DNA of 64,000 nucleotides from an uncultured Acidobacteriota bacterium (GTDB lineage Bacteria > Acidobacteriota > Vicinamibacteria > Vicinamibacterales > CAVVIG01), in the NCBI GenBank assembly GCA_963792175.1, contig CAWBVG010000034.1, positions 85,830 to 149,829 on the forward strand. The letters are read 5' to 3'. Below the pieces are notes generated by a model. It ran no database searches and was not told the origin of the DNA. It saw nothing but the letters and a program-made list of their open reading frames with translations. This document shows positions 38,877 through 56,176 of this stretch, piece by piece. A program made the translations under genes and the position numbers. Position 1 is the first letter of the stretch. Every line of letters starts with the position of its first letter.

Positions 38877-39734
38877 CGCTGCACCCAAGAAGGGCGAATG
38901 CCGAAGCGGCTGCGCAGGAACGGAAGGACCAGAGCGCGGGTGCGATCCGGTTCGTCGATCATCGGCCAGTGGCCGGCGCCCTCGATGACGTGCACCTCGG
39001 CATCGAAGAAGCGTTTTTGCGTCTCGGCGTAGCGCACCGGAATATTCGGGTCACCGCGTCCCCACACGACGAGCGCCGGCAGGCGCGTGGCGCGAGAGCG
39101 CCTCGCCCTGCTTCACCGACGAAACCTCAGACGCGGACGTGGCGCGATAAAGCGACAGCACAGCCCTGCGCGCTCCCCGGTCCCACTGTTGGAACATCCG
39201 ATCGAGGATTCGATCAGGCAGCGGCTTCGGGTTGTCACGGTTCAGAGTCACCTTGAAGCGCGCTCGCGTTATGGTGAACATGGACAGCTCGCCGGCGAGC
39301 GGCGTCCGCCACAGCCGGGCGTACTTGTGATACCGATAGCCCGGCAAGACCCCGACGTTGATCAGCACCAAGCTCGCCACGCGCAGCGGATTGGCCGCGG
39401 CCCAGGCGAGGCCCCAGGGTCCTCCGAAGTCGTGAAGCACCAGGTGGCTCCGCGACACGCCGAAGTGCGTCATCACGGCGTCGAGGTGGCGTGCGAAACC
39501 CTCGACGGTGTACTCGAAGTGGGCCGCGCGCTCCGATCCGCCGAAACCCGGCATGTCAGGGGCGAGCGCGCGGGCGAAATCGCCGACGTAGGGCTGGAGT
39601 TCGGCGAAGTCCTCGCTCGAACCGGGGTTGCCATGCACGAACACGACGGCTTCGGACCCGTCGGGCGGTCCCGTTTGACGGACAAAGGTACGGACGCCCT
39701 GCACGAGGACGTCTGTCGCAACAACCTTTGCCAC
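38873..39734 (-). CDS. Alpha/beta hydrolase (haloalkane dehalogenase/epoxide hydrolase-like); frameshift near 39080
   Basis: VFVHGNP, APDMPGFGGS, LVLHDFGG, WGRGDP, GAGHWP. Confidence 0.88.
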
Positions 39735-39848
39735 CGATCAGACCGCCGTTTCCCGCGTCATACCCGTTATGCTAACCGCGAGACGGCCCGATGTTCTCTA
39801 TCGTCTTCTCGCGGCGCGGAAGAAACCTAGCTGCTGAAGGGCTCGCGC

Positions 39849-40835
39849 GTGACCAGGCCTCGCATCGTCATCGTGGGCGCGGGTGCGGCCGGCCTGGCGA
39901 TGGGGATGCGCCTCAAGCGCGCCGGCATCAACGACTTCGTCGTCGTCGATCGCAGCGACGGCGTCGGCGGGCACATGGCACGACAATCGCTACCCGGGTG
40001 CGGGCTGCGACGTGCCGTCGCACCTGTATTGCTTCTCGTTCGAGCCCAACGCACGGTGGAGCAACAAGTTCGGGCGGCAGGGCGAGATTGAGCGGTACCT
40101 CGTCGACTGCGTCGAGCGCCACGGGCTCGCGCCGCACCTGCGGCTCGGCGTCGAGGTGCGCGGCGCGGAGTTCGACGACGGCACGTGGCGCGTCGCCACG
40201 AGTGCCGGCGAGCTCGAGGCCGGCGTGCTCGTCAGCGGCTGCGGGCAACTGAGTCGGCCGCGCGTGCCGGCGTTGCCCGGCCTCGACCGGTTCGCCGGAG
40301 CGACGTGTCACTCGGCGCGGTGGGACACGGGCGCCGATGTCACCGGCAGGAACGTCGTGGTCATCGGCAGCGGCGCGAGCGCGGCGCAGATCGTTCCGGA
40401 GACCGCGCCGCGCGCGGCGCGGTTGACCGTGATCCAGCAAACGCCCGCTTACGTGATCCCGCGCAAGGTCCGCGCGTATCGCGGGTTCGAGCAGTGGATG
40501 TTCCGCAACGTCCACGGGTGGCGACGTCTGTATCGCTGGTGGATCTACTGGTCCCTCGAGACGCGGTTCACAGCGCTGCGTCGCGGGAGCCGCGGCGCGC
40601 GCTGGCTGGACGTGCGAGAGGAGGCGATGGCCCGGTGGAACGCGCGCCTCCAGCGCGACCTCGGCGTCACGGCATGGGCCGGCGAGTGCAGCAGCTGGTA
40701 CAAGACCGCATCGGGAAAGATCACGAACAACTGGTCGCGTCGATCGTCGGCGTACTGGTGGCAGACTCGGAAGCCCGACTTCGCGGAGTTCGAGTTCGAC
40801 CAGTTCAAGAGGCCACAAGGTCGGGACCCGGATAG
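39849..40835 (+). pseudogene. Flavin-containing (Baeyer-Villiger-type) monooxygenase with apparent large internal deletion; 3' end approximate
   Basis: IVGAGAAG, GGTWHDNRYPGAGCDVPSHLY, FAGATCHSARW, VIGSGASA and C-terminal CSSWY...ITNNW present; GCKR, ATGF and FPN/GPN blocks absent. Confidence 0.7.
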
Positions 40836-40870
40836 AATGCGCCTTGTCGTCCGTGAGAAAGTGAGATGTC

Positions 40871-42274
40871 ATGTCCCAGAAGTACAGCTTGCCAGTAGCG
40901 TCCTGGTTGACCGGACATCTGACGCACCTTCAACCGGCCAAGCTCGCATTCATGGAGCGGTGTGAGCGCGAGTTCCCGATTGGCTGCTTCCGCGTCTATC
41001 ACGTTCCGCTGTTCGTCGTGTCGGACCCTGAGCTCGTCGGCGAGGTGCTGGTTCACCGGAACGATGACTTCATCAAGACCTGGCCGCTGCGCAGCGCCGG
41101 TCGTCCGCTGTTTGGCGACGGCCTGGTGACCTCGTCCGGCGACACCTGGAAGCGGAACTCCGCGCGCATGCGCCCGCGTTTCCAGCCCCGCCAGGTCGAC
41201 CACTATGTCCCGGCGATTCACCGGCACACCGAAGCGCTCCTCGACGAGTGGAAGGCCGGCGACACGCGCGCCATTCCGCTCGACATGTCGCATCTGACGC
41301 TGCGCATCGCCTGCGATGTGCTGTTCGGCGTCAGCGAGCGTGAAATCCGTGACGCGCTGCTCTGCGCGTGCGATACGTCGCAGGCGTTTTACTCGGCCTG
41401 GGAGCGAAGCTATTTTCCGATCCCCGCGCTGATGCCGACGCGCGAGAACGTGCGCTATCGCAGCGCGATCCGCGCGCTCGACCGGCAGCTCTACGCGTTG
41501 ATCGAGCGCTGGCGGCGAACCGGCGGCGCGAGCGAGGGCAACATCGTCGCGCAGCTGCTGGAGCACCGCGACCCCGACGGCGCCCCGCTGCCCGACCTGA
41601 TGATCCGCGACGAACTCGTGACGCTGTTCCTCGCGTCCTACGAGACGACCGCGGCGGTGCTTGCGTGGACACTGTACCTGATCAGCACGCACCCGCGGGT
41701 CGAGGCCCGCATCAAAGCGGAGCTTGCATCGGTGCTGGGCGGCGCGCTGCCGGGGCCTGATGTGGCGCGCCGGCTGCCGTATCTGTACGACGTGCTGCGC
41801 GAGAGCCTGCGGCTGTACCCGTCCATCCCGCTCTTCGGCCGCTCGGCTGTTCGCGACACGCGCATCGGCGTCACCCAGGTTCCGAAGCACTCCGAGGTCT
41901 TGATCTCGCCCTGGGCGATCCAGCGCTCGAGCCGTCATTACGAAGACCCGCTTGCGTTCCGTCCCGAGCGGTGGACGCAGGAGTTCGAGCGCAGCCTGCC
42001 GCGGTATGCGTACATCCCGTTCAGCGGGGGGCCGCGCGTGTGCATGGGCCAGTACATGGCAGTACAGGAGTCGATGCAGATCCTGGCAACACTGCTGCAG
42101 TTCGCCGAGCTGCGGCCGGTCGAGGGACAGACCCCCGTGCTCGACGTGGGGATGACGGCCGTGCCGCGCCGCGGCACGCTCACGCTGCAGGTTCGCGCGC
42201 TGAGCAAGCCGCCTGCGCAGATCCCGTCGCACGTCGATCGCGGTCTCGGCGCGCCACAAGAAACGGCGAATTGA
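40871..42274 (+). CDS. Cytochrome P450
   Basis: GDGLVTSSGDTW, DELVTLFLASYETTA (I helix), ESLRLYP (EXXR), FRPERW, PFSGGPRVCMG (heme Cys). Confidence 0.95.
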   Translation: MSQKYSLPVASWLTGHLTHLQPAKLAFMERCEREFPIGCFRVYHVPLFVVSDPELVGEVLVHRNDDFIKTWPLRSAGRPLFGDGLVTSSGDTWKRNSARMRPRFQPRQVDHYVPAIHRHTEALLDEWKAGDTRAIPLDMSHLTLRIACDVLFGVSEREIRDALLCACDTSQAFYSAWERSYFPIPALMPTRENVRYRSAIRALDRQLYALIERWRRTGGASEGNIVAQLLEHRDPDGAPLPDLMIRDELVTLFLASYETTAAVLAWTLYLISTHPRVEARIKAELASVLGGALPGPDVARRLPYLYDVLRESLRLYPSIPLFGRSAVRDTRIGVTQVPKHSEVLISPWAIQRSSRHYEDPLAFRPERWTQEFERSLPRYAYIPFSGGPRVCMGQYMAVQESMQILATLLQFAELRPVEGQTPVLDVGMTAVPRRGTLTLQVRALSKPPAQIPSHVDRGLGAPQETAN

Positions 42275-42299
42275 TCGCCGGCCGTATAAAATCTGAGCC

Positions 42300-42743
42300 A
42301 TGGCGGCGAGATACCTCGACGAGCGGACTTATGAGACCGGCGACATCGTCTTCGCTGAAGGCGATCCGGGCTCGGAGATGTTCATCGTCTCCGAGGGGAA
42401 CGTCGTCATCACGAAGCAGGTCGCCGGGCGGGACGTGTTCCTGGCCGCGCAGGGACGAGGTGACTTCTTCGGCGAGATGGCGCTGCTCACCTCCAGCCCG
42501 CGTCACGGCACGTGCGTTGCGCTCGTCCCGACGCGGCTGGTGGCGATCAAGAGCGGTGAGCTGCTCATGAAGCTGCGGCGCGATCCGACGTTTGCGCTCG
42601 AGATGCTGCAGCAGATGACCCGGCGCATCGGTTATCTGGAGGATCAGATGGCGAAGCTCATGGAGCAGGAGCTGGCGTCGCGCCAGGAGCTCGCCACGAT
42701 TCTGGCGAAGTCCGAATATCGTCTCCGCGACAGCCCGGGATGA
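42300..42743 (+). CDS. Stand-alone cyclic nucleotide-binding domain protein
   Basis: IVFAEGDPGSEMFIVSEGNV, GDFFGEMALL, PRHGT; no HTH; TAAAAT-N7-ATG. Confidence 0.88.
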   Translation: MAARYLDERTYETGDIVFAEGDPGSEMFIVSEGNVVITKQVAGRDVFLAAQGRGDFFGEMALLTSSPRHGTCVALVPTRLVAIKSGELLMKLRRDPTFALEMLQQMTRRIGYLEDQMAKLMEQELASRQELATILAKSEYRLRDSPG

Positions 42744-43497
42744 TCACCGACGTCCGCGAGAATCGGCTGCTCGTGACGTCCGACCCGCATATCGGCCACC
42801 TTTTCTGCGACGCGCGCCGCGGGCTGGTTCGCTGGCTGGAATACGCCTGCGCCCACAACTACAACGTCTGTATCAACGGCGACGGTATCGAGCTTCAGTA
42901 CACGTCGCTGAGAAGGTTCACGACGGAGACGGCGGCCTGCTGCGCGACATCCGCCGGATCGCCAGCGAGATCACCATCTACTACACGATCGGCAACCACG
43001 ACATCATCCTGGAGCACTACCTCGGCGACTGGGGAGGGCTGCGGCTGGTTCCTTATCTGAACGTCAGTTCGGGCACGAAACGCATCCACATCGAACATGG
43101 CCATCTGTACGACACGTCGCTCGAGGGTCGCCCGGATCTTCGTCATGGACTGAGACGGTTCTTCTGCTTTTTGTGCCGGGTTTACCCGCCCGGCTTCCAT
43201 TGGCACCAGAAGTACGAAGTGGTGCGATACCGATATATCCGGCGGCTGCTCGGCCAGGATCGTCACCTGCTCGACTCGCCGATGACGCGCGACGTGAGCC
43301 CATCATTCCAGGAAGCGGCGGAGGACGTGGCGCAGCGAGGATTCGACGCGGTCATCTTCGGGCACACGCATTATCACGGCGTGCTGCCGTTGAACGGAAA
43401 TCGCGCACGTTACTTCAACACCGGCAGCTGGTTCGACCAGCCACACTACGTCGCGATCGACAACGGCGAGATGGAACTCAGGCCCTGGCCGCAATAG
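42740..43497 (+). CDS. Metallophosphoesterase, LpxH/PlcP-like; frameshifted
   Basis: TSDPHIG, INGDG, IGNHD, IEHGH, IFGHTH, NTGSW across three frames; ATGA coupling to cNMP gene. Confidence 0.8.
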
Positions 43498-43547
43498 CGA
43501 ACGTTGCCCTTTCCTTCCTCTCGCACAATCACAATAATGATTCCACC

Positions 43548-44143
43548 ATGCGCTCCCGATGGATCGCCGCCCTGGAAGCCGTCGCGGTGACCCTGTTCTT
43601 CGCCCTTGTGGCCCTCCTGGCGACGCGCGTAGTCCGCGACGCGCCGGAACGGGACTCGAACTCTCCTTCTGATCCTGGGGGCGACCGCCGGCTACGCGCT
43701 CGCCGACGTCGCGTCCGGCCTGACCCACTGGTTCTGCGACACGTTCTTCCGGGAAGACACGCCCTGCATCGGCCGCGTGCTGATCTTCCCTTTCCGCGAG
43801 CACCACCGCGACCCGACCGCGATGACGCGCCACGGGTTCCTGGAACTCACCGGAAACAGCTGCCTCGGCGTGTCGCCGATCCTGGGGCTGGCCGCCTGGC
43901 GGCCCTGGTCGCCGATCCTGGACGCGGGGCTGATCGCGTTCGCTCTCGCCCTGTTCGGCACCAACCTCTTCCACAAGTGGGCCCATTCCGCGGAAGTTCC
44001 CGGCATCGTCCGATGGCTTCAGAAATGCAACCTGATTCTGAACCCCGCCCGCCACCAGGTCCACCACACGCCGCCGAACAAGAAGCGCCTATTGCGTTAC
44101 GAACGGCTGGATGAACGTGCTTCTCGACCGGATCCTCCCGTGA
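43548..44143 (+). CDS. carF: CarF/TMEM189 (PEDS1) family plasmanyl desaturase; frameshifts near 43660 and 44085
   Basis: ADVASGLTHWFCDT, FREHH, TNLFHKWAH, RHQVHH, YCVTNGWMN: the His-rich signature of the family. Confidence 0.85.
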
Positions 44144-45027
44144 TGGAGACCGCGCGGATCTCACTGATCGACAACGCGAGGTGGAGCTCAGGCATAGCGC
44201 GGCCGGCGTCGAGCACACGTTGGGGCGGTTGCTTGAGGTCCCACACGAGACCGAGGAGCGACAAGAGCTTCAGGATGTAGTACGTGAGGTCGACTTCCCA
44301 CCAGAAGAATCCCATGCGGGTCGACGTAGGCGTAGTAATGATGATTGTTGTGCCAGCCTTCGCCCATCGTGAAGAGCGCCAGCACGAGGTTGTTTCGACT
44401 CGTGTCGGTCGTCGGGTAGCGAATCCTTCCAAACATGTGGCAGAAGGAGTTGATCGCAAACGTGGCATGGAACAGCAGCACCGTGCTGATGAAAAATCCC
44501 CAGACCAGCCCCTGCCAACCCATCGCGAGCAAACAGCCGACGGCGAGAAGCACGCTGGAAACCGCATACCAGTGGTTCAATAATCGGAGCTCGGGGTACT
44601 GCGCGAAGTCCTGGATGATGTCGAGTCGGGTCGCATCGTGCCTTCTGGCCAGGAGCCAACCGAGGTGCGACCACCAGAACCCCTCACGCTCGGGGGAATG
44701 CACATCCGCCTCCTGGTCGGAATGCTGGTGATGATGGCGATGATGCCCCGCCCACCAGAGGGGGCCTCTCTGCACCGCGGAGCAGGCGAGCGCCGCCAGC
44801 ACGAATTGAAAGGCGCGGCTCGTGCGATACGACCGGTGGGCAAAGTAGCGATGATAGCCGCCGGTGATGGCAAACATCCGGACCGCGTACGTCGTCGCGC
44901 ACAACACGATCGCGTTCCATGACACGCCGGTCCAGAACGCGGCGAGACACGCCACGTGCACGAGGAGAAAAGGGATGCTCTTGATCCAGTCGACCCGGTC
45001 CAGATCCGCGGTGGACGCAGTGCGCAT
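44097..45027 (-). CDS. Acyl-CoA delta-9-type fatty acid desaturase; frameshift near 44330, 3' end uncertain
   Basis: GYHRYFAHRSY, WWAGHHRHHH, DVHSP, INSFCH, GEGWHNNHH, WWEVDLTY. Confidence 0.9.
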
Positions 45028-45157
45028 GAGTCGAGCGAGTTTACCGTACGGCTTCCACTTCTTCGCCTGCGCTTCCGTGACCCACTTGCATTAGAGTAGG
45101 CCCAGAGACACTCGACCCTTTCCCTCGGGCCCCAGGCTTTGCGACGTTGGGAAAACC

Positions 45158-47452
45158 ATGAGCGAAACCTGCGGCTTTAGCTTGTCTCCGCCTTGTCCGG
45201 CCGCAGGCTCCTGTTGACGGGCGCCACCGGCTTCATCGGCAAAGTCACCCTGGCGATGCTGCTCAATCGCCACCCGTCCGTAGGACGGCTATACGTTCTT
45301 GTCCGCTCGCGCCCCGGGCGCGACGCCGAACAGCGGTTCATCGACATCCTGGGCTCTCCCGCGTTCACGCGACTGCAGCGGCGGCACGGGAAGGACCTCG
45401 AGCGCTTCGTGAGGGAGCGCGTCAAAGTCGTCGGCGGCGACGTCACCGAGCCCGGTTTTGGCATCCCGCCGCAAGCCTTATCTGCGTTGACAGGCAGGAT
45501 CGATGCGATCGTCAACATGGCGGGTCTTGTCTCCTTCAATCCCGCAATGGACGTCTCGCTGAAGATCAACACTCACGGAGCCCGCTACGCCGCAAGGCTG
45601 GCGCTTGCCCTTCGGGCGAAGCTCGTTCATGTATCCACCTGCTATGTGGCCGGCTTGCGTGCGGGCGAGGTGCGCGAGAACGAGCGGCTGTCCGGCTATT
45701 TTCCGAAGGGGCTCACGACGCCCGGTATCTTCTCGGCCGCCGCCGAGCTCGCCGAATGCGACGCATGCGTCGAACGGATCGCGCAACGCGCCAGAGCCGA
45801 GATACCCGGACGGCGCCGCGCCAGGCGCTGGAGCGAGGCGCAACTGGTCGAGGAAGGGAGCCGCCGCGCCCGCGCCTGGGGCTGGCCAAACATCTACTGT
45901 TTCACCAAGGCATTGGGCGAGCAACTGATCGCCGAGACTCCGGGCCTCGATTTTACAATCGTGAGGCCATCGGTCGTGGAGAGCTCCCTCCGCTATCCCT
46001 TCCCGGGCTGGAACGAAGACGTCACGACGAGCGCTCAGATGATCCTGACCATGTGCAGGGGCCATGTCCTCTGGCCCGCGCACCGGAAAGCGGCGTTGGA
46101 CCTCATCCCTGTCGATCTCGTGGCCGCGGGCACGATCGCCGCCACCGCCGCTCTTCTGTCCGGGCGCCAGGAGCGCGTGTATCACCTGGCCTCTTCCGAC
46201 GCGAATCCTGTGACGGTGCGCCGCTGTGGGCGGTACATCGGCCAGTATCGTCGCAGGCCACTACAAAGACCACGCCCCCGGCGCGTTGTGGGCGCATTGG
46301 GTATGGACGCGCGTGGGAGTCTTCACGGTATCGGAGCCCGTCTACCGCCGTTTCGGGGTGCCCGCTTTCCGCAAGGCGGTCGCGCGCCTCTCGAGGATGT
46401 TCGCCAAGCCGCCGCGAACACTCGCAAGGATCGAGCGGGAGCTGACCCAGGTCGAGCGCGCCGTCAATGCCTTCACGCCTTTCATCCACGACATCGACTG
46501 CGTTTTCAAGACGGACAATCTCCGGGCGCTCTACGCACAGTTGCCGGCAGCCGAGGCGGCGAGCTTTCCCTGGGATCCCGAGACCATCGATTGGCGGCAC
46601 TACTGGTCGGACGTGCACACGCAAGGGCTGCGGCAGTGGGTCTTCCCGGGCTTTCCGGGCCGCAATGGCGATACGCTGAACCCGGCCTCTGGCGCCGTCG
46701 CCAGTCGGGCAGTGCGCGCGGCATTGAACCTCGGCCAGCGCGTCGTCTACGGCGGGCTATTCCGCGCCAAGGTCGTCGGCGAAAAAAACATTCCCGAGGC
46801 TCCGGGCTTCATCGTCGCCTCGAATCATGCCAGCCATTGGACATGGGCCTCATCAAGCATGCGCTGGGGCCCTCCGGCCGCGAGCTCGCGGCGCTGGCGG
46901 CCAAGGATTATTTCTTCAAGAATCCAGCACTGAACTTTTTTTTCCGCAATTATACGAACCTGCTTGCCTATCGGCCGCACCGCCAATGTCAAGGACTCGC
47001 TGGCCGTGGCATCGCAGGCACTCAAGCGCGGCAAGAACCTGCTGATCTTCCCCGAGGCGACGCGCTCGACGACAGGGAAGATCGCACCGTTCAAGGCCAC
47101 TGTTGGCTATCTTGCCTTGCAGAATCAGGCCGATGTCCTGCCCGCCTACGTCGCAGGCACCTTCGACTCCCTGCCTAAGGGCGGTATCGTGCCGAGGAGC
47201 TTGCGAGTCGCGGCCCATCTGGGACCGATCCTACGCTACGCGCAGCTCGACGGAGCGACCAGGCACCTTGCTTCCAAAGAGGCCTCCCGCGCCGTGACGA
47301 CAATCATCGAAGAGGCCGTGCGCGCACTCGAGTGCCAGGCGGCGCGCAAAATGTGGGACGGTTCACCCGCTTTAAGCGGCGCTGTCTCCGGACACCGTTT
47401 GGCGCGGCTCGTCCGCCGCCTCCGGCTGCGTCGGCTGAGCCCAGCCGAATAG
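45158..47452 (+). CDS. Fatty acyl reductase (NAD_binding_4 + Sterile) fused to PlsC-type acyltransferase, ElbD-like without A and T domains; several frameshifts
   Basis: LLLTGATGFIGKV, HVSTCYV, GWPNIYCFTK (YxxxK), IVRPSVVES, PFPGWNE, PWDPETIDW; then in the same frame ASNHASH, and next frames DMGLIK, AAKDYFF, LLIFPEATRS. Confidence 0.85.
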
Positions 47453-49096
47453 AGGCTCGTTGCCCGGTATCAGCTTGCCAGGGTTCATGATCCCAGCCGG
47501 GTCCAAGCCCGCCTTGAGAGCCTTGAGCGCCGTGATCCCGGCCTTCGAGATTTCCTCTTCCATCCATGGCCGGTGCTCGCGGCCGACGGCATGGTGGTGG
47601 GTGAGCGTGGCTTTGTTCGCGAGAAAGGTTTCGGTAATGAGCTTCTTGAAGCTGTAATACTGTTCCAGCTCCGCGCCAGCCTGTTGTGCGCAGGCGTAGG
47701 TGAAGTAAACACAGGCCCCAGTCGTGTAAGTATGGGAGATGTGGCAGCCAATGAAGCCCGGCGTGCCATCGCGCTCGAACTTCTCCTTCATCACAGCGAT
47801 CACCTTTTTATATAAAGGCAGCACGTCGCTCCAGGTCGCAGCTGTCTCGGCCACGTCGCACATGATGCCGCGGTCCATGACGAAATCGCGTATGTAAGGG
47901 AGGTTGAACTTGTCCTTCTGCCACAGGGCTCCAACCTCATGCCCGAGATCAAGGCCATGATGGCGTTTCAGAATCCGGCGGACGTCTTTCCGTAAGGCGT
48001 TTACGCGGTCGGAGTCTCCTTCAATACCGACAATCATGATCGCGGGATGACGATAGCCGCGCGCTTTGAGGAGCTTCTTGAATTGAGCCTGGATGAAGCC
48101 CTTGACGCCGGTGGTCAATGGCTTCATGTTTGACGCCAGCTCCGTCTCGGCGTTGTCCTGCAGGCGGATGAGGCTGGGTCGACGCTCGGACTGGATGAGT
48201 TCTTGGACGGCGGCGAGCGCTTCTTCGAATTCGCGGAAGAGCACGCCGCGGTAGTCTCTGGCTGGAGGGGTTTTGTGCACGCGCATCGTGGCCTCGGTAA
48301 TGACGCCCAGGACCCCTTCCGATCCCGTCACCAGGCGATTGAGGTCGGGCCCGGCCGATGATGCGGGCGTGTTTCTCGTCGTGAGCGTTCCGGAGGGTGT
48401 AACCAGCTTCACGGAGACGAGCATGTGTTCGATCTTGCCGTAGGCATCCGACTGCATGCCGGCGGAGCGCGTGGCGAGCCAGCCGCCCAGCGTCGAGTAC
48501 CGAAAGAGTCGGGGTAGTGGCCGAGCGAAAAACCGCGGGCCTGTAGGTCTTGCTCGAGTTTGGGGCCCAGAGCACCGGCTTCGATGACAGCCGTGTTCGA
48601 TTCCGGGTCGAGCGACAACAGCCGGTTCATGCGCGTCATGTCGAGGGTGACGACCATGCGGACGGCCTCCTCCGGGTTGATGCCGCCGACGATGTTGGTG
48701 CCGCCGCCGAACGGGACGAGGCAGACGCCGTGCTCGTGGGCCAGCGCGACGACAGCCTCCACGTCCTCGTGGCCTTCGGGATAAACGACGAGGTCGGGGA
48801 CGGCGCACGATGCCTTTGCGCACGTAAAAGAGATCGGGATAGCTTTTGCCGTACGAGTGCAGCAGCCTCTCGTCTTCGGTGTCTGTGATCTGATCGGGTT
48901 TGAGCCGCGCGGCGAGAGCGCGGCAGAAGCCGTCGTTGAACAACGGGGCTTCGAGGCGAATCTCCGCGCGCCTGACCGGAGGGCTGGAGCGCGTGGTCTT
49001 CAGGCCCAGGGTTCGGACCACCCAGGGCCAGAAGTCAGGCCTGTCGGCGATCGAGAACTCGAACCCGGTGTCACCCCAGCCCCACCATTTCATCAT
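47372..49096 (-). CDS. agpS: Alkyldihydroxyacetonephosphate synthase (AGPS/ADPS), FAD-linked; two compensating frameshifts near 48800 and 48500
   Basis: MKWWGWG, GKSYPDL, PFGGGTNI, GHYPDSF-x-YSTLGGWLATRSAGMQS, GSEGVLGVIT, CHISHTYTTGACVYFT, THHHAVG, DPAGIMNPGKL. Confidence 0.88.
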   Translation of the reverse strand: MMKWWGWGDTGFEFSIADRPDFWPWVVRTLGLKTTRSSPPVRRAEIRLEAPLFNDGFCRALAARLKPDQITDTEDERLLHSYGKSYPDLFYVRKGIVRRPRPRRLSRRPRGRGGCRRAGPRARRLPRPVRRRHQHRRRHQPGGGRPHGRHPRHDAHEPAVVARPGIEHGCHRSRCSGPQTRARPTGPRFFARPLPRLFRYSTLGGWLATRSAGMQSDAYGKIEHMLVSVKLVTPSGTLTTRNTPASSAGPDLNRLVTGSEGVLGVITEATMRVHKTPPARDYRGVLFREFEEALAAVQELIQSERRPSLIRLQDNAETELASNMKPLTTGVKGFIQAQFKKLLKARGYRHPAIMIVGIEGDSDRVNALRKDVRRILKRHHGLDLGHEVGALWQKDKFNLPYIRDFVMDRGIMCDVAETAATWSDVLPLYKKVIAVMKEKFERDGTPGFIGCHISHTYTTGACVYFTYACAQQAGAELEQYYSFKKLITETFLANKATLTHHHAVGREHRPWMEEEISKAGITALKALKAGLDPAGIMNPGKLIPGNEPLFGWAQPTQPEAADEPRQTVSGDSAA

Positions 49097-49856
49097 GACG
49101 AGACTTTACTGGATTTCAATCAATGCCGGGCAGGCGCTGTTCACGGGCGTGTGGACCGGTCTCTGGGTGACCACGGCGCTGCTGATCATGGTGTTCACCC
49201 GTGACAAAAGGATTCCACTAGCGATGGCCCGCCGGATCTGGGCACCAGGGTTGATTCGGTGCGTGGGGGCGAAGCTGGATGTCCGGGGGCTCGAGAACGT
49301 AGACTTCAGCCGCCCTCACGTCTTCGTCGCGAATCATGTGTCGACGATCGATATCCCCGTCGTCTTCGCCGCGATTCCGGTGAACCTTCGATTCATCATC
49401 AAGAAAGAGCTGACATACGCGCCGTTCGTGGGACTCTTCGCCTGGGCCACCGGGATGGTTTTCGTCGATCGGAAGGAAAGCAAGGGCGCCCTTGCTGTCG
49501 TGAAGCGCGTGGGATCGCTGAGCGCCGCAGGGCAAAGTGTGATCGCGTTTCCCGAGGGGACGCGCAATCGGAGTAACACGCTCCTGCCCTTCAAGAAGGG
49601 CGTTTTTGTTGCGGCGTATCACGCAGGCGTGCCGATCGTGCCCCTGGCCATCGACGGCTCGCGCGAGGTGATGCCGCCCCCCACGTGGGCGCTGCGGCCA
49701 GGCCCTATCCGCGTGGCCATTGGCAAACCGATCCCGACGGCAGGGCTGTCGCGGGAAGACAGCGAAACCCTGCCGAAACGTGCGCACGAAGCGGTCGCCG
49801 CGCTTCGGAAGACCATCGCAAGCGGCCTTCCGCCAGTCGTTCAGTCGGGGCGCTGA
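49095..49856 (+). CDS. plsC: 1-acyl(alkyl)-glycerol-3-phosphate acyltransferase
   Basis: FVANHVSTID (NHX4D), FIIKKEL, VFVDR, FPEGTR, PFKKG, VPIVP; ATG 49095. Confidence 0.9.
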   Translation: MTRLYWISINAGQALFTGVWTGLWVTTALLIMVFTRDKRIPLAMARRIWAPGLIRCVGAKLDVRGLENVDFSRPHVFVANHVSTIDIPVVFAAIPVNLRFIIKKELTYAPFVGLFAWATGMVFVDRKESKGALAVVKRVGSLSAAGQSVIAFPEGTRNRSNTLLPFKKGVFVAAYHAGVPIVPLAIDGSREVMPPPTWALRPGPIRVAIGKPIPTAGLSREDSETLPKRAHEAVAALRKTIASGLPPVVQSGR

Positions 49857-49865
49857 CGCGCGTCC

Positions 49866-50462
49866 ATGCCGTCACTCCTCTCGAATCAGACTGTCGGTGT
49901 GATCGGTTCAGGCACCTTCGAGCACGAGCCATAGGCACGCGCCGTCGGCGAACTGCTCGCCGACCTGGGCGTCAACCTGCTCACCGGCGGCGGCCGCGGT
50001 GTCATGACCGCCGTCAGTCGTGCATTCACTCAACGTCCTCGAACTCGAGGCATTTGTATCGGCATCATTCCGTGCGAGAGCGAGACCGATCGCGCGAGGC
50101 CGAAGGCCGGCTACCCGAACGAGTTCGTCGAGTTGGCGATCCAGACGCACCTTCCGTACAGCGGTGCAGAGGGTACGCACGATCTGTCGCGCAACCACAT
50201 CAACGTGTTGTCGTGCGCGGCGATTATCGCGTTGCCGGGCGAAGCTGGAACAGTGTCTGAAATCGAGCTGGCGATCCGCTACGGCAAGCCGGTGATTGCG
50301 TATTCACCGAACCCGGCGCTGGTAGAACACTTTCCCCGGTCGGTGAGACGCGCGGACAGCATCGATGAGGTCAAAGACTTCCTGCAAGATGCAGCTAGCC
50401 CCCCGCCTTCGCTCGAGCCGACACCCGTGAGCTTCGGCGAGGCAGGCTCCGTTAGTCCCTAG
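49866..50462 (+). pseudogene. LOG/TIGR00725-like Rossmann nucleotide-binding protein with in-frame TAG at 49932
   Basis: MPSLLSNQTVGVIGSGTFEHEP*ARAVGELLADLGVNLLTGGGRGVM...SRNHINVLS...LPGEAGTVSE. Confidence 0.7.
50403..50439 (-). repeat. REP-like palindrome, same family as 16670-16751
   Basis: rc cgccgaagctc...gagcgaaggcgg. Confidence 0.7.
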
Positions 50463-50482
50463 GCCCCAGGTCCCCAGTCCCT
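50452..50482. repeat. Short degenerate heptamer array (GTCCCTA/GGCCCCA-type) over convergent stops
   Basis: ttagtccctaggccccaggtccccagtcccta. Confidence 0.55.
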
Positions 50483-51873
50483 ACGGAGATCATCTTCCCC
50501 GGATTCATCCGATTGTCGGGATCCAGCGCGCGCTTGATCGTCCGCATGATCTCGAGCGATGCCCCGTGTTCCGCTTCGAGATACTTCATCTTGCCGAGCC
50601 CGACGCCATGCTCGCCCGTGCACGTGCCGCCCATGGCGAGCGCCCGTGTCACCATCCGTTCGTTCAGACGCCCTGCCTCCGCGCGCTCCGACGCGCTCTC
50701 CGGATCCAGCACGTAGATCAGGTGGAAGTTGCCGTCGCCGGCATGACCGACCAGGCAGATCGGAAACGGCGCGCCGGCATTGTCCTTCTTGGTTTCGATG
50801 ATGCACTCGGCGAGCCGCGAGATCGGCACGCACACGTCCGTCGTCCACCCCTTGGCGCCGGGCCGCAGCGCCAATGCCGCGTACAGCGCATGATGCCGCG
50901 CCTGCCAGAGCCGCTCGCGATCCTCCAGGTGCGTGGCCCACGTGAAATCACGGCCGCCGTGCTCCAGCGCCAGCGCCTGCACGGTTTCGGCCTGATCGGC
51001 GACGTGTCGCGCGCTGTCGCTGTGAAATTCGAAGAACAGCATCGGCGCCACCGGATAGCTGGTCTTCGAATAGCGATTGACCGCCTCCATCTGCGCCTCG
51101 TCGAGCAGCTCGATGCGCGCGACGGGCACGCCCAGCTGAATCGTGGCGATCACCGTCTCGATGGCGCCCGCGATCGAATCGAACGCGCAGGTCGCCGCAG
51201 AAACCGCCTCCGGCAGCGGATGCAGCCGCACCGTCACTTCGGTGATGACGCCGAGCGTGCCCTCCGATCCGACGAACAGGCGCGTCAGGTCGTAACCGGC
51301 CGCCGATTTTCGCGCGCGCGTTCCGGTCGTGACGATCGATCCGTCGGCGAGCACGACGGTCAGGCCCAGCACGTTCTCGCGCATGGTGCCGTAGCGCACG
51401 GCGGTGGTGCCCGAGGCGCGGGTCGCTGCCATGCCGCCGATCGTCGCGTCCGCGCCAGGATCGACGGGGAAGGTGAGCCCCGTGTTGTTCAACGCCTTGT
51501 TCAGTTGGAGGCGCGTGACGCCCGCCTCGACGGTGGCGTCGAGGTCCTCGGCGCTGACCCGCACGACCCGATTCATCTCGCGAAGGTCGAGGCAGATGCC
51601 GCCGCGGATGGCGTTGACGTGCCCCTCCAGCGAAGTGCCCGCGCCGAACGGGACGACCGGAATCTGCCGCCGGGCGCTGATGGCGAGAATCGCCGCGACT
51701 TCGTCGGTGGAGTGCGGGAAGCAGACGACATCGGGCGCCGCCGGCGCGTGGTACGACTCGCCGTGGCTGTGGTGCTCGCGGACGGCTGCCGCGTCGCTGG
51801 CGCGCGAGCCGAGCAGCGCGCGAAGCTCCCGGATCGCGGATTCAACTGCCGCTTCGGTCGCTGGCGTGGCCAT
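50452..51873 (-). CDS. FAD-linked oxidase, D-lactate dehydrogenase (cytochrome)/GlcD-like
   Basis: PFGAGTSLEGH, FPVDPGADATIGGMAATRASGT, SAAGYDL, GHAGDGNFH, TGEHGVG. Confidence 0.9.
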   Translation of the reverse strand: MATPATEAAVESAIRELRALLGSRASDAAAVREHHSHGESYHAPAAPDVVCFPHSTDEVAAILAISARRQIPVVPFGAGTSLEGHVNAIRGGICLDLREMNRVVRVSAEDLDATVEAGVTRLQLNKALNNTGLTFPVDPGADATIGGMAATRASGTTAVRYGTMRENVLGLTVVLADGSIVTTGTRARKSAAGYDLTRLFVGSEGTLGVITEVTVRLHPLPEAVSAATCAFDSIAGAIETVIATIQLGVPVARIELLDEAQMEAVNRYSKTSYPVAPMLFFEFHSDSARHVADQAETVQALALEHGGRDFTWATHLEDRERLWQARHHALYAALALRPGAKGWTTDVCVPISRLAECIIETKKDNAGAPFPICLVGHAGDGNFHLIYVLDPESASERAEAGRLNERMVTRALAMGGTCTGEHGVGLGKMKYLEAEHGASLEIMRTIKRALDPDNRMNPGKMISVGTGDLGPRD

Positions 51874-53578
51874 CGGTGTTCAGTATAGGGCCGACCGGGA
51901 GCCGGACGATGAACGTCGAGCCGTGGTCCTGGCCGTCGCTCTCCACGACGATTGAGCCGCCGTGCAGGTCCACCAGGTGTTTGACGATGGCGAGACCGAG
52001 GCCGAGGCCGCCGAATCGGCGCTTGCGGCCGGCGTCTTCCTGGCGAAACCGGTCGAACACGTGCGGCAGGAATTCGCGTGAGATGCCCGCGCCGGTGTCG
52101 CGGACGATGATCGAAACGTGGCCGTCGGCGCGCTCCAGCCGCACTTCCACACGTCCGTCGTTCGGCGTGAACTTGATCGCGTTCGACAGCAGGTTCCCGA
52201 CAATCTGCTGCAGCCGATCGGGGTCGCCGGCGATGATGCCCACGGGTCCGTCGACAATCGTCTCGACGCGGATGTTCTTGGCGTCGGCAGCCGGCGTCAT
52301 CGTCTCGACCGCCTCGCGCACGACCTCCGGCAGGCTCACGTCCTTGATGTCGAGGCGGAGCGTACCGCCGTCGACCCGGGCCATGTCGAGCAGGTCCTCA
52401 ACCAGCCGTGTCTGTGCGCGCGCGTTCCGTTCGATCGATTGAATCGCGGCGGCTTGCTGCTCGCCCTGGACGGCGCCCGTCGCCAGCATCCGCGCCCAGC
52501 CGCGGATCGCCGTCAGCGGCGTCCTGAGCTCGTGCGACACCGTCATGAGGAATTCCTGTTCCAGCCGCAGCGCCTTCTCGAGGCGGTCGTTGGCTGCCCT
52601 CAGCCGATCCGCTTCCTCCCGCTGCGTCCGCGCCAGCGCGCGTTCCACCTCGTTCTTCTGATCCGTCTGGCGGAGCAGGGCCACCAGCGTACCGGCCATC
52701 ATCACCGCCAGGACCCCGAAGAACACCGCCGACTCGGCCCCCTGGATTCGCCAGTCGTGCAGCACCTCGTCGCGATCGAGCGACACCGCCACGATGATTG
52801 GCGGCTCGGCCGTCGAACGAAATGCCGTCAGTGTCGCCGGTTCGCCGAGCCGCTCGCTGGTGTCGATCGTTCCGGTCCCGTTGGACCGTTTCGCCGCGGC
52901 GAGGATCGGGTTCGAAACCGCCGATTCCCCGAGCGGCCCTCTGTCTGACGGTTCACGGAACAAGACGATGCCGTCGGGGTGAAACATCCAGATGGCGCCG
53001 CGCCGGCCGACGTCCATCGTCTGAAACAGGTTGCGCATCGAGGACGGAATCATCGCCGCGACGACGATCCCTTGAAACGCGCCGTTGTCGTCGAGCAGCG
53101 GTCGCGCAAATGGAATCACGAACGTCCTGGGCTCGACCACCGTCGGGAAGGGATTGCTGATGATCAGCCGGTCTTTCGGATCGGCGGCGAGCTGTTGGAA
53201 GGCCGCATCGTCGCGGCGCGACTGCCCGACGATGAGCGGTTGCGTCGAGTGACGGATCGTTCCGGTCGCGTCGACGATGGAAATCGAGCCGGTGTGGCGG
53301 AGGCCGGCGCGCGCGGAGGCCAGACTTGGCGCCCAATCCTTTGCCGCCGCCGCCGGGCCGCCGATGCGGCGGCTGTGCATCGCCAGCTGGCGCAACGCGC
53401 TGTCGTCTGCCGCGAGCGTTTCCCGCAGGTACTCCGAGAGGATGAACGCCAGGTTCGATGCGCGCGCCGAGGCCGACGCCAGCGTCTGGGTGCGTCCCGA
53501 CCAGAGCTCGATCCCGCGGAATGCGCCCAGCGTGAACAGCACGCCAAGCGTGAGTCCGACAAAGACAGGCTTGCGCAC
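51842..53578 (-). CDS. Membrane sensor histidine kinase (Cache-like sensor, HisKA, HATPase)
   Basis: Two TM segments; VSHELRTPL, NLLSNAIKFT, DTGAGI, VFDRF, GLGLGL. Confidence 0.93.
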   Translation of the reverse strand: MRKPVFVGLTLGVLFTLGAFRGIELWSGRTQTLASASARASNLAFILSEYLRETLAADDSALRQLAMHSRRIGGPAAAAKDWAPSLASARAGLRHTGSISIVDATGTIRHSTQPLIVGQSRRDDAAFQQLAADPKDRLIISNPFPTVVEPRTFVIPFARPLLDDNGAFQGIVVAAMIPSSMRNLFQTMDVGRRGAIWMFHPDGIVLFREPSDRGPLGESAVSNPILAAAKRSNGTGTIDTSERLGEPATLTAFRSTAEPPIIVAVSLDRDEVLHDWRIQGAESAVFFGVLAVMMAGTLVALLRQTDQKNEVERALARTQREEADRLRAANDRLEKALRLEQEFLMTVSHELRTPLTAIRGWARMLATGAVQGEQQAAAIQSIERNARAQTRLVEDLLDMARVDGGTLRLDIKDVSLPEVVREAVETMTPAADAKNIRVETIVDGPVGIIAGDPDRLQQIVGNLLSNAIKFTPNDGRVEVRLERADGHVSIIVRDTGAGISREFLPHVFDRFRQEDAGRKRRFGGLGLGLAIVKHLVDLHGGSIVVESDGQDHGSTFIVRLPVGPILNTDGHASDRSGS

Positions 53579-53593
53579 AGCGCTAGTGACGGA

Positions 53594-54151: not shown

Positions 54152-54236
54152 CCTGACAGTATATCGAGCGCCTTCCGACAATTCTGCAATCCGGCTGTTC
54201 CGCCGCCGCGCAATTTATCTTTTCTGTATGGCGTGG

Positions 54237-54245
54237 TGATATTCT
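54237..54245 (+). promoter_or_regulatory. Extended -10 promoter of the ACP-FAAL-spt operon
   Basis: TG-a-TATTCT preceded by an AT-rich tract, 14 nt upstream of ATG 54260. Confidence 0.55.
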
Positions 54246-54259
54246 TACCCACTTCATAC

Positions 54260-56121: not shown

Positions 56122-56176
56122 GAGCCGAGAGCTGAGAGCCGAGAGCTGAAAGCTGAGCAGCTGAAAGCTGAAAGCT
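56113..56176 (+). repeat. Nine-unit heptamer array GA(G/A)AGC(T/C) filling the FAAL-spt intergenic space
   Basis: gagagct gagagcc gagagct gagagcc gagagct gaaagct gagcagct gaaagct gaaagct, then GTG. Confidence 0.95.

What the first reader, a model, noticed from the sequence alone, without database searches (positions are those of the whole stretch)
43548..49856. Clustered eukaryote-style aerobic ether-lipid/plasmalogen pathway
Seen in 6.3 kb: CarF/PEDS1, acyl-CoA desaturase, FAR-acyltransferase fusion, alkyl-DHAP synthase (HHH motif and HTY-x3-AC-x-YF segment) and PlsC. Known animal route: FAR makes fatty alcohol, GNPAT makes acyl-DHAP, AGPS swaps acyl for alkyl, then reduction, sn-2 acylation and PEDS1 desaturation. 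Every step except the alkyl-DHAP reductase and head-group transfer has a candidate here. Acidobacteria make ether lipids by incompletely known routes, and I know of no description of this five-gene arrangement. Best candidate for a new system in this window.
Basis: partly seen in the sequence, partly recalled or inferred. Interest (0 to 1): 0.9.

Follow-up and report, generated by a model that had tools for sequence, protein, structure and literature searches.

The report
Acquired aerobic plasmalogen gene island
A soil bacterium, probably an acidobacterium, carries a compact, horizontally acquired set of five genes matching the oxygen-dependent ether-lipid (plasmalogen) pathway known from myxobacteria and animals, and its apparent frameshifts are most likely assembly errors.

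Summary
Window 43548-49856 encodes a CarF/PEDS1-family desaturase, an SCD-like acyl-CoA desaturase, a FAR-acyltransferase fusion (FARAT), an alkyl-DHAP synthase (AGPS) and a PlsC acyltransferase.

Four of the five genes are broken by nine frame-changing indels. Contigs from four independent soil and sediment metagenomes (about 98.5% identical) differ from the window at exactly those nine sites, and applying their indels makes every gene one full-length ORF. The assembly is frameshifted genome-wide, including its dnaE orthologue.

The cluster is an acquired island:
- No AGPS orthologue or CarF-family gene in 60 family and order relatives.
- The AGPS nests among Elusimicrobiota, Bdellovibrionota and Pseudomonadota sequences.

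The pathway is not new. Myxococcus has the AGPS-FARAT operon MXAN_1676-1674 plus carF. A 2026 survey counted 73 bacterial genomes with all four enzymes, 12 of them outside Myxococcota (PMC13012113).

What differs here:
- The compact linkage of carF with the other genes.
- The extra desaturase and PlsC.
- The missing reductase gene.
- The host lineage.

Verdict: a real, probably functional, new variant of a known kind, of moderate interest.

The parts
43548..44143 (+). carF/PEDS1-family lipid desaturase. It is 197 aa when read with the two 1-base corrections seen in metagenome contigs at 43650 and 44086.
   Evidence: PF10520 E 7e-32. NF045946 at 118.5 bits, below its cut-off of 500. Nine His plus the D and F signature residues. 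Intact 197-198 aa homologues at 75-96% identity. Indels.
44100..45027 (-). SCD/OLE1-like acyl-CoA desaturase, about 309 aa, with one 1-base error at 44329. Its 3' end overlaps the carF 3' end. The window has 51 extra bases (44142-44192) relative to the contigs.
   Evidence: PF00487 E 1e-20. Best PDB hits are acyl-CoA desaturase 1, 4ymk/4zyo. His boxes HRYFAH, HHRHH and HNNHH. Indels.
45158..47452 (+). FARAT: fatty acyl-CoA reductase domain fused to a GNPAT/AGPAT-like acyltransferase, 764 aa after correction. Window errors at 45183, 46259, 46836 and 46962.
   Evidence: NAD_binding_4 E 2e-52, Sterile E 3e-9, Acyltransferase E 9e-9. PDB fatty acyl-CoA reductase 7eoz E 6e-50. The corrected protein aligns in one piece, residues 7-724, at 53% identity with the Elusimicrobia FARAT in L001. 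Motifs GATGFIG, YCFTK, NHASHLD and FPEATR.
47372..49096 (-). Alkyl-dihydroxyacetone-phosphate synthase (AGPS), 575 aa after correction. Window errors at 48500 and 48795. Its 3' end overlaps the FARAT 3' end by about 80 bases.
   Evidence: FAD_binding_4 plus FAD-oxidase_C. Dictyostelium ADPS 2uuu E 4e-78 and guinea-pig AGPS 4bby E 1e-51, with the Tyr of HTY, the HHH loop and the IRLxD Arg aligned. 65-66% identity in one piece to Elusimicrobia AGPS. Tree.
49095..49856 (+). PlsC-type 1-acyl(alkyl)-glycerol-3-phosphate acyltransferase, 253 aa, intact. Its ATG overlaps the AGPS ATG head to head by 2 bases.
   Evidence: PF01553 E 5e-33. TIGR00530 at 120.2 bits, above its cut-off of 102.95. Motifs NHVSTID and FPEGTR. 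Start-codon overlap read from the sequence.
45028..45157 (.). 130-base divergent intergenic region between the desaturase and FARAT starts. A shared promoter region is inferred.
   Evidence: Sequence. The consensus promoter scan was uninformative: 2 sites against 1.2 expected.
38886..50487 (.). Larger segment without DNA-level matches in relatives. It may be the full extent of the variable or acquired region: alpha/beta hydrolase, FMO-like protein, P450, cNMP-binding protein, metallophosphoesterase, the five-gene cluster, and a SLOG/TIGR00725 protein.
   Evidence: blastn of window 36500-56400 against 36 relatives matched only 36500-38885 and from 50488 onward, plus weak desaturase paralogue matches. 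Pfam hits.

Best explanation
This is a horizontally acquired gene island for oxygen-dependent synthesis of sn-1 ether glycerophospholipids, probably ending in plasmalogens. It sits in a soil or sediment bacterium that is probably a member of Vicinamibacterales (Acidobacteriota).

Inferred mechanism, from the established roles of the families:
1. The FAR domain of FARAT reduces acyl-CoA to a fatty alcohol.
2. The acyltransferase domain of FARAT makes 1-acyl-DHAP.
3. AGPS, a flavoenzyme, exchanges the acyl group for the alcohol to give 1-alkyl-DHAP.
4. A ketoreductase not encoded in the cluster gives 1-alkyl-glycerol-3-phosphate.
5. PlsC acylates sn-2.
6. The host's ordinary CDP-diacylglycerol route adds the head group.
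7. The CarF/PEDS1-type di-iron desaturase introduces the 1'-vinyl ether bond using O2.
8. The SCD-like acyl-CoA desaturase probably supplies unsaturated acyl chains.

Shown here: gene identities, catalytic motifs, intactness in natural populations, and foreign origin. Inferred: every enzymatic step and the final product.

The nine frameshifts in the window are assembly errors, not gene decay.
For: Gene identities:
- Pfam, NCBIfam and PDB matches for all five genes.
- AGPS keeps the residues aligned with the catalytic Tyr, the HHH loop and the Arg of the solved enzymes (the roles of these residues are recalled).
- CarF has exactly nine His, at the eight universally conserved positions plus the ninth His. 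PMC9131029 reports the ninth His as essential and as present in functional PEDS1 proteins (myxobacteria, Leptospira, animals) but not in plant or alphaproteobacterial homologues. CarF also has the conserved Asp and Phe. The ninth-His column varies (R, Q, L, N, Y) in 5 of 15 other family members aligned.

Frameshifts as artefacts:
- Contigs of 4 runs from 4 studies differ from the window by indels at 43650, 44086, 44329, 45183, 46258/9, 46836, 46962, 48500 and 48795.
- With those indels applied, CarF (197 aa), the desaturase, FARAT (764 aa) and AGPS (575 aa) are single ORFs, colinear with homologues.
- Genome-wide there are 85 distinct frameshift events in about 218 kb aligned to ORFs of relatives, including the dnaE orthologue.

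Acquisition:
- AGPS orthologue in 0 of 60 relatives, best 29% identity.
- PF10520 in 0 of 60 relatives.
- The window AGPS pairs with an Elusimicrobia sequence (support 96/94), inside an 11-row clade (97/100) that holds none of the 12 same-phylum sequences.
- No DNA match in 36 relatives across 38.9-50.5 kb.

Precedent:
- The M. xanthus operon MXAN_1676-1674 and carF, where genetics show roles in alkyl and alkenyl lipid formation (PMC9131029 passages; PMC13012113 section 3).
Against: - No alkyl-DHAP reductase candidate. The comparable clusters in L001 (a separate SDR gene) and L012 (an AT-SDR fusion) have one. M. xanthus has MXAN_1674. The best G000 match to the L001 SDR is only 32-41% identical.
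- The CarF piece scores 118.5 bits against the NCBIfam CarF equivalog cut-off of 500. It is a 197-aa clade, shorter than that 269-position model, and no member of this clade has been tested.
- The nearest CarF homologues elsewhere (74-83% identity) stand alone between housekeeping genes. None of 80 CarF-anchored metagenome loci has AGPS, FAR or AT nearby; 34 of these loci have at least 3 kb on one side.
- In the phylum sample only 1 of the 12 other genomes with a CarF-family gene also has an AGPS-like gene.
- In M. xanthus the AGPS route is the minor one (PMC9131029).
- Indel density in the cluster (9 in 6.3 kb) exceeds my genome-wide estimate of 0.39 per kb, which came from a less sensitive method.
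- The laid contigs are about 1.5% divergent, so they are close relatives rather than proven to be the same strain. Real frameshifts private to this strain are not strictly excluded.
- The five genes alternate strands, so they are not one operon.
Confidence: 0.74

Rival explanations
1. The island makes only saturated-ether (plasmanyl or neutral alkyl-acyl-glycerol) lipids. The CarF-family protein is then a desaturase of different specificity, for example FAD4-like, so no plasmalogen is produced.
For: - PF10520 includes non-PEDS1 enzymes: plant FAD4, and an alphaproteobacterial homologue that did not complement carF (PMC9131029, PMC13012113).
- The score is far below the NCBIfam CarF equivalog cut-off.
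- Most members of the 197-aa clade are not linked to AGPS.
- 11 of 12 same-phylum CarF-family genomes lack an AGPS-like gene.
Against: - The ninth His, Asp and Phe signature of functional PEDS1 is complete.
- Physical linkage with AGPS, FARAT and PlsC here, and with FAR, AGPS and AT-SDR in L012, points to an ether-lipid substrate.
Confidence: 0.17
2. In this particular strain the cluster is a decaying remnant. The frameshifts are real mutations, and only related strains keep it functional.
For: - Nine frame-changing indels fall in four of five genes, a density above the genome-wide estimate.
- The compared contigs are about 1.5% divergent, so they are not demonstrably the same strain.
Against: - The assembly carries frameshifts in conserved genes throughout, including dnaE, and its completeness is only 82.6%.
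- There are no in-frame stops or large deletions in the corrected genes.
- Four runs from four studies agree with each other against the window at many of the listed substitution sites too, some in all four runs.
Confidence: 0.05
3. The genes serve fatty-alcohol or wax-ester production, or general phospholipid remodelling, and the AGPS-like flavoenzyme has another substrate.
For: - FAR enzymes also feed wax-ester synthesis.
- FAD-linked oxidases are a large family with many substrates. NCBIfam has no AGPS model, and the best NCBIfam hit was GlcD, far below its cut-off.
Against: - The AGPS match to the solved alkyl-DHAP synthases (E 4e-78) is about 60 orders of magnitude better than to any other FAD oxidase, and it includes the signature HHH and Tyr segments.
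- The FAR is fused to a DHAP-AT-like acyltransferase, as in the known FARAT proteins (PMC13012113).
- No wax synthase was seen in the cluster.
Confidence: 0.04

Closest known systems
Myxococcus xanthus MXAN_1676 (AGPS) - MXAN_1675 (FAR+AT, 'FARAT') - MXAN_1674 operon, together with carF (PEDS1)
   Same: The same four signature activities are present: a FAR and GNPAT-like acyltransferase fused in one protein, AGPS next to it, and a CarF-family desaturase with the nine-His signature. The logic is the same oxygen-dependent, eukaryote-like route (PMC9131029 passages; PMC13012113 sections 3, 10-12).
   Different: - Here carF lies inside the cluster. The M. xanthus operon as described has three genes, without carF.
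- There is no MXAN_1674-like NAD-dependent epimerase or SDR gene.
- An SCD-like acyl-CoA desaturase and a PlsC are added.
- The genes alternate strands instead of forming one operon.
- CarF is 197 aa and scores far below the NCBIfam CarF equivalog cut-off.
- The host is probably Acidobacteriota, and no second strong FAR-type reductase domain that could mark an ElbD was found in the genome.
Animal and protist peroxisomal ether-lipid pathway (FAR1/2, GNPAT, AGPS, PEDS1/TMEM189; FARAT in many protists)
   Same: The enzyme families are homologous. AGPS is about 45-50% identical to Dictyostelium ADPS over the aligned stretches, with the active-site segments conserved. The FAR domain matches the solved fatty acyl-CoA reductase 7eoz.
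   Different: - A bacterial setting without peroxisomes.
- Head-group attachment presumably goes through the bacterial CDP-diacylglycerol route (inferred).
- No DHRS7B/PexRAP-type reductase was identified.
Clusters in public MAGs found here: Pseudobdellovibrionaceae (L012) and Elusimicrobia (L001)
   Same: - L012 carries, in about 7 kb, a DAG-kinase-like gene, FAR, AGPS, an acyltransferase-SDR fusion and CarF.
- L001 carries FARAT and an SDR convergent with AGPS, the same FARAT / AGPS convergent layout as the window, at 53% and 65% identity.
   Different: - Both encode an SDR, the likely alkyl-DHAP reductase, which the window cluster lacks.
- Neither has the SCD-like desaturase or a separate PlsC in the fetched flanks.
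- L001 has no CarF nearby; its genome gives only a weak 30-bit PF10520 match.
Myxobacterial elbA-E (ElbD) ether-lipid cluster, and the anaerobic PlsA/PlsR (Ger) route
   Same: Both also give bacterial sn-1 ether lipids.
   Different: The enzymology is different. ElbD is a multidomain, PKS-like enzyme, and PlsAR reduces an ester anaerobically. In G000 the window FARAT is the only strong NAD_binding_4 match (181 bits; next best 63 bits). PlsAR was not searched.

Membership tests
Alkyl-DHAP synthase (AGPS/ADPS, EC 2.5.1.26) | FAD_binding_4 plus FAD-oxidase_C architecture, with the closest solved relatives being AGPS rather than other FAD oxidases | tested here: met
   Pfam. 2uuu E 4e-78 and 4bby E 1e-51, against 1e-16 for the next family, D-lactate dehydrogenase. 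The middle piece hits 2uuu at E 6e-28.
Alkyl-DHAP synthase (AGPS/ADPS, EC 2.5.1.26) | Active-site segments: Tyr in HTY...AC.YF, the HHH loop, and Arg in IR(L/V)xD. The residue roles are recalled from the structural papers, not from a call. | tested here: met
   The segments are aligned and identical. Positions in the corrected protein: HTY 456, HHH 501, IRL 311.
Alkyl-DHAP synthase (AGPS/ADPS, EC 2.5.1.26) | Acyl-for-alkyl exchange activity on acyl-DHAP | not testable with these tools
   Needs an enzyme assay.
PEDS1/CarF plasmanylethanolamine desaturase | PF10520 lipid desaturase domain with the eight universally conserved His | tested here: met
   PF10520 E 7e-32. His at 60, 85, 86, 142, 146, 169, 172 and 173.
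PEDS1/CarF plasmanylethanolamine desaturase | The ninth essential His (M. xanthus H113; absent in plant and alphaproteobacterial homologues), plus the conserved Asp and Phe (criteria from PMC9131029 passages) | tested here: met
   His95 lies 9 residues after the HH pair. The motifs are HWFCD and PFREHH. I assigned the equivalent positions from the motif spacing recalled for mouse PEDS1, not from an alignment with M. xanthus or human sequences, which I could not obtain.
PEDS1/CarF plasmanylethanolamine desaturase | Score above the NCBIfam equivalog NF045946 cut-off (500 bits) | tested here: not met
   118.5 bits for the 145-aa unbroken piece. A full-length read could not be submitted, but 197 aa cannot plausibly reach 500 bits. 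So it is filed as a CarF-family member, not a proven equivalog.
PEDS1/CarF plasmanylethanolamine desaturase | Four transmembrane helices; vinyl-ether-forming activity | tested here: inconclusive
   A crude hydropathy scan gives three to four hydrophobic stretches. Activity is not testable here.
FARAT (FAR + GNPAT-like acyltransferase fusion) | N-terminal NAD_binding_4 and Sterile (FAR) domains and a C-terminal acyltransferase domain in one polypeptide, with the HX4D and FPExTR blocks | tested here: met
   Domains on pieces. One 764-aa ORF after the read-derived corrections. Colinear with the L001 FARAT over residues 7-724. Motifs.
PlsC/AGPAT acyltransferase | PF01553 with HX4D; TIGR00530 above its cut-off | tested here: met
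   120.2 bits against a cut-off of 102.95. NHVSTID and FPEGTR motifs.
SCD/OLE1-type acyl-CoA desaturase | PF00487 with three His boxes; closest solved relatives are stearoyl-CoA desaturases | tested here: met
   Regiospecificity was not tested.
M. xanthus MXAN_1676-1674-type operon | AGPS adjacent to FARAT | tested here: met
   Convergent, with 3' ends overlapping at 47372-47452.
M. xanthus MXAN_1676-1674-type operon | A third gene for an NAD-dependent epimerase/dehydratase or SDR, the putative alkyl-DHAP reductase | tested here: not met
   None between 38.9 and 50.5 kb. The best G000 match to the L001 SDR is 32-41% identical and lies elsewhere.

The most novel reading that the evidence does not exclude
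This 6.3-kb island would be a self-contained, mobile aerobic plasmalogen module. It carries all four signature enzymes plus an sn-2 acyltransferase and an acyl-CoA desaturase, and it has moved between bacterial phyla into an abundant soil Vicinamibacterales lineage.

That would make plasmalogens a trait of aerobic Acidobacteriota. It would also provide a living example of the kind of en bloc unit that the 2026 PNAS study (PMC13012113, Discussion) proposes was transferred from bacteria to early eukaryotes and to some fungi.

The 197-aa CarF clade, widespread in soil metagenomes, would then be a minimal PEDS1.
Probability: 0.35. Interest if true: 0.6.

Novelty: new variant of a known kind. Interest (0 to 1): 0.45.

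Why it matters
Aerobic plasmalogen synthesis in bacteria has been tied almost entirely to Myxococcota. The published survey found the full enzyme set in only 12 genomes of five other phyla (PMC13012113 section 10).

A compact, evidently transferable cluster in a common soil acidobacterial lineage would do three things:
- Widen the set of likely bacterial plasmalogen producers.
- Offer a small construct for heterologous reconstitution of the whole route, including a test of a minimal 197-aa PEDS1.
- Show that carF can travel together with AGPS and FARAT, which bears on the proposed en bloc transfer to eukaryotes.

It does not address brGDGT or iso-diabolic-acid ether lipids, the main open question for Acidobacteria, because AGPS chemistry gives sn-1 monoalkyl ethers.

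There is also a practical lesson. This assembly is rich in indel errors, so gene-call-based surveys would miss or fragment these genes.

Tried and rejected
- Synteny search from the CarF side. 80 metagenome loci were kept out of 155 confirmed relatives. None had AGPS, FAR or acyltransferase by tblastn or by profiles built in the script box. Only 34 of the 80 loci have at least 3 kb on one side. So carF linkage is rare, but this is weak evidence, because these genomes may hold AGPS elsewhere.
- Synteny search from the AGPS side. Of 15 loci from species-representative genomes, tblastn found FARAT or a FAR part near AGPS in 4 (L001, L003, L004, L010) and an acyltransferase part only in 2 (L007, L011). 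Pfam also showed a FAR in L012 that tblastn missed. CarF was nearby in 1 locus (L012).
One NCBI-labelled hit (Vicinamibacterales, 85% identity) is the only basis for the taxon.
- rpoB as a frameshift control. It was not found in G000 at all, so I used the dnaE orthologue instead.
- Promoter and terminator scan. Not above chance for promoters: 2 sites against 1.2 expected.
- Placing CarF in a tree with M. xanthus, human and plant anchors. I had no tool-given anchor sequences and typed none from memory, so I used the published residue criteria instead.
- PDB search with CarF: no hit.
- Contamination or chimera as an explanation. I rejected it because the flanks match family relatives at 70-80% DNA identity, and independent metagenome contigs carry carF joined to the desaturase 3' end, and the desaturase through PlsC (records 1, 5, 8, 9, 13).
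- Supplements of PMC13012113 were not seen. Its datasets list the 12 non-Myxococcota genomes and could include this genome or lineage.

Full report
**What is there**

Stop-to-stop reading and family searches show five lipid genes in window 43548-49856.

- A PF10520 (CarF/PEDS1/FAD4 family) desaturase on the plus strand.
- A PF00487 desaturase on the minus strand. Its closest solved relatives are the mammalian stearoyl-CoA desaturases 4ymk and 4zyo, E 2e-24.
- A plus-strand gene with NAD_binding_4 (E 2e-52), the FAR C-terminal 'Sterile' domain and an acyltransferase domain. The FAR part matches the solved fatty acyl-CoA reductase 7eoz at E 6e-50.
- A minus-strand FAD-linked oxidase. Its pieces match Dictyostelium alkyl-DHAP synthase (2uuu) at E 4e-78 and 6e-28, and guinea-pig AGPS (4bby) at E 1e-51. 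The next family, D-lactate dehydrogenase, scores only 1e-16.
- An intact PlsC (TIGR00530 at 120 bits, cut-off 103).

**The frameshifts**

Homologues from other genomes align to the window in pieces that switch frame. AGPS runs -3, -1, -3. FARAT runs +1, +2, +1, +2. carF and the desaturase lose their C-termini to another frame.

Two lines of evidence say these are errors of this assembly.

First, the whole assembly is like this. ORFs of at least 300 aa, taken from 400 kb of three same-family genomes, aligned to G000 with 121 frame switches. These reduce to 85 distinct events in about 218 kb, or 0.39 per kb. They include the orthologue of DNA polymerase III alpha. G000 is 6.84 Mb in 55 contigs and only 82.6% complete.

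Second, 24 public runs from 19 studies hold part of the stretch. I laid four of them, from four studies.
- Their contigs are about 98.5% identical. One 5631-base contig shows 83 substitutions and 7 gaps over 44343-49899.
- They differ from the window by small indels at 43650, 44086, 44329, 45183, 46258/9, 46836, 46962, 48500 and 48795.
- They also lack 51 bases (44142-44192), an in-frame difference.
- One further indel was not shown in the output.

Applying the nine indels in a script gives single ORFs:

| Gene | Length (aa) |
|---|---|
| CarF | 197 |
| Desaturase | about 309 |
| FARAT | 764 |
| AGPS | 575 |
| PlsC | 253 |

The corrected FARAT and AGPS then align in one piece with the Elusimicrobia proteins, over residues 7-724 at 53% identity and 2-557 at 65%. 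Intact 197-198 aa CarF homologues at 75-96% identity are common in metagenomes.

Caveats:
- The contigs are close relatives, not proven to be the same strain.
- The indel density in the cluster is higher than my genome-wide estimate, which came from a less sensitive method.

**Is the CarF homologue a PEDS1?**

PF10520 also contains plant FAD4, and an alphaproteobacterial homologue failed to replace CarF (PMC9131029 passages; PMC13012113 sections 3 and 12). The review gives residue criteria:
- eight His conserved in all homologues;
- a ninth essential His, found only in the functional group (myxobacteria, Leptospira, animals);
- a required Asp and a required Phe.

The corrected protein has exactly nine His (positions 60, 85, 86, 95, 142, 146, 169, 172, 173). 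They sit in the pattern H-x3-D ... F-x2-HH-x8-H ... H-x3-H ... H-x2-HH. In an alignment with 15 other family members the ninth-His column is R, Q, L, N or Y in five, so it does discriminate.

Against membership, the piece scores 118.5 bits where the NCBIfam CarF equivalog asks for 500. I could not obtain M. xanthus or human sequences from a tool, so I assigned the equivalent positions from recalled motif spacing. I therefore file it as a CarF-family protein with the PEDS1 signature, not as a proven PEDS1.

**Origin**

- None of 60 genomes of the same family or order has an AGPS orthologue; the best is 29% identical. None has a PF10520 gene.
- In a 400-genome sample of the phylum, 12 have PF10520. 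55 have an AGPS-like gene at 26-44% identity; this count includes the unpublished G106.
- Only one genome, G074, has both, and on different contigs.
- The nearest AGPS sequences are in Elusimicrobia (62-66% identity to the C-terminal query), Bdellovibrionota and Burkholderiales MAGs.
- In a maximum-likelihood tree the window AGPS pairs with an Elusimicrobia sequence (support 96/94). It lies in an 11-row clade (97/100) with none of the 12 best same-phylum sequences.
- DNA of window 36500-56400 matches 36 relatives only up to 38885 and again from 50488. The exceptions are weak desaturase paralogue matches. The variable segment may therefore be about 11.6 kb, and it also holds an alpha/beta hydrolase, an FMO-like protein, a P450, a cNMP-binding protein, a metallophosphoesterase and a SLOG protein.
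- The right flank (GlcD-like, CDO-like, AMP-ligase, aminotransferase) is syntenic in several relatives.
- The GlcD-like protein is 85% identical to a protein that NCBI labels Vicinamibacterales. This is the only basis for the taxon.

**Comparison with what is known**

The route is described in M. xanthus as the operon MXAN_1676 (AGPS), MXAN_1675 (FAR + GNPAT-like AT) and MXAN_1674 (NAD-dependent epimerase/dehydratase family), plus carF. Deleting MXAN_1676 or elbD affects alkyl and alkenyl lipids, and the ElbD route dominates (PMC9131029 passages; PMC13012113 section 3).

The 2026 survey found all four enzymes in 73 GTDB genomes: 61 in Myxococcota and 12 across five other phyla (section 10). 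The list is in supplements I could not open. agps homologues in Acidobacteriota have been noted before (bioRxiv 10.64898/2026.06.23.733905, passages).

My own loci add two natural comparators.
- A Pseudobdellovibrionaceae MAG carries a DAG-kinase-like gene, FAR, AGPS, an AT-SDR fusion and CarF.
- An Elusimicrobia MAG carries FARAT and an SDR convergent with AGPS.

Both encode an SDR that would fit the alkyl-DHAP reductase step. The window cluster has none, and G000 has no close orthologue. G000 also has no second strong FAR-type reductase domain that could mark an ElbD.

The closest CarF homologues elsewhere (74-83% identity) sit alone between PilT-like ATPases and SMC. None of 80 CarF-anchored metagenome loci has AGPS, FAR or AT nearby. 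The window island therefore looks like a mosaic: an Elusimicrobia-like FARAT/AGPS pair combined with a carF of a widespread soil clade, a desaturase and a plsC.

**Anatomy**

The genes alternate strands.
- carF and the desaturase converge, with overlapping 3' ends.
- The desaturase and FARAT diverge from a 130-base spacer.
- FARAT and AGPS converge, with about 80 bases of overlap.
- The AGPS and plsC start codons overlap head to head by two bases.

This is not a single operon. Consensus promoter scans were uninformative.

**Verdict**

This is a real and, in nature, intact gene island for the known aerobic ether-lipid and plasmalogen route. It was acquired horizontally by a probable Vicinamibacterales bacterium.

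The exact five-gene arrangement and the host lineage were not found in the papers I searched. The system itself is known, so this is a new variant of a known kind, of moderate interest.

The product is inferred, not shown. I put about 0.75 on the island encoding ether-lipid synthesis with artefactual frameshifts, and about 0.55-0.6 on the end product being a vinyl-ether plasmalogen.

Noticed in passing
window 54157-58160: An AMP-binding (FAAL/DIP2-like) ligase (54157-56118, +), a class I/II aminotransferase of the alpha-oxoamine-synthase type (56165-57298, +) and an SDR with a weak NAD_binding_4 match (57707-58159, -) lie together. The GlcD-like, CDO-like, ligase and aminotransferase genes are syntenic in several family relatives. 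This may be a sphingolipid- or aminolipid-type pathway.
   Followed up: partly
whole genome G000 (e.g. C39:335270-335323; C34:81959-84013): The assembly carries frameshifts throughout: 85 distinct events in about 218 kb aligned to ORFs of relatives, including the DNA polymerase III alpha orthologue and a homoserine kinase / threonine synthase region. rpoB was not found at all. The 82.6% completeness is probably depressed by this.
   Followed up: yes
window 42740-43497: A calcineurin-like (LpxH-like) metallophosphoesterase lies directly upstream of carF and is itself split between two frames near 42.9-43.1 kb. It is preceded by a cNMP-binding protein, a P450 and an FMO-like flavoprotein. A lipid phosphatase role in the pathway is conceivable but untested.
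   Followed up: partly
L012:4697-11379 (public Pseudobdellovibrionaceae MAG): A compact cluster: DAG-kinase-like gene, FAR, AGPS, an acyltransferase fused to a short-chain dehydrogenase, and CarF. The AT-SDR fusion is a good candidate for a combined DHAP acyltransferase and alkyl-DHAP reductase.
   Followed up: partly
L069, L071, L074, L075 (metagenome contigs): The 197-aa CarF clade closest to the window's (74-83% identity) sits as a lone gene in a conserved housekeeping context, between two PilT/T2SSE-type ATPases and SMC, with NDK, EF-P and SerA nearby (Pfam run on L069 and L071). This suggests a vertically inherited carF in some unidentified high-GC soil lineage.
   Followed up: partly
window 44142-44192: The window has 51 bases that contigs of three runs lack. 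This is an in-frame 17-codon difference in the C-terminal tail of the desaturase, where it overlaps the carF end. It may be a strain difference or an assembly artefact.
   Followed up: no
window 49091-49097: The AGPS (minus strand) and plsC (plus strand) start codons overlap head to head within the sequence tCATCATGa, so each gene's promoter must lie inside the other's coding sequence, unless one start is mis-assigned.
   Followed up: no
L080 (contig of P0047, labelled Planctomycetota by NCBI): This CarF homologue, 75% identical, has Arg in place of the first conserved His (LIRWFCD), a position that the review reports as essential.
   Followed up: no
window 44268-44484: Contig depth spikes here (up to 68, against about 12 elsewhere), and many short contigs end at 44339-44384, inside the desaturase HNNHH region. 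A conserved segment shared with other organisms' desaturases breaks the short-read assemblies at this point.
   Followed up: no
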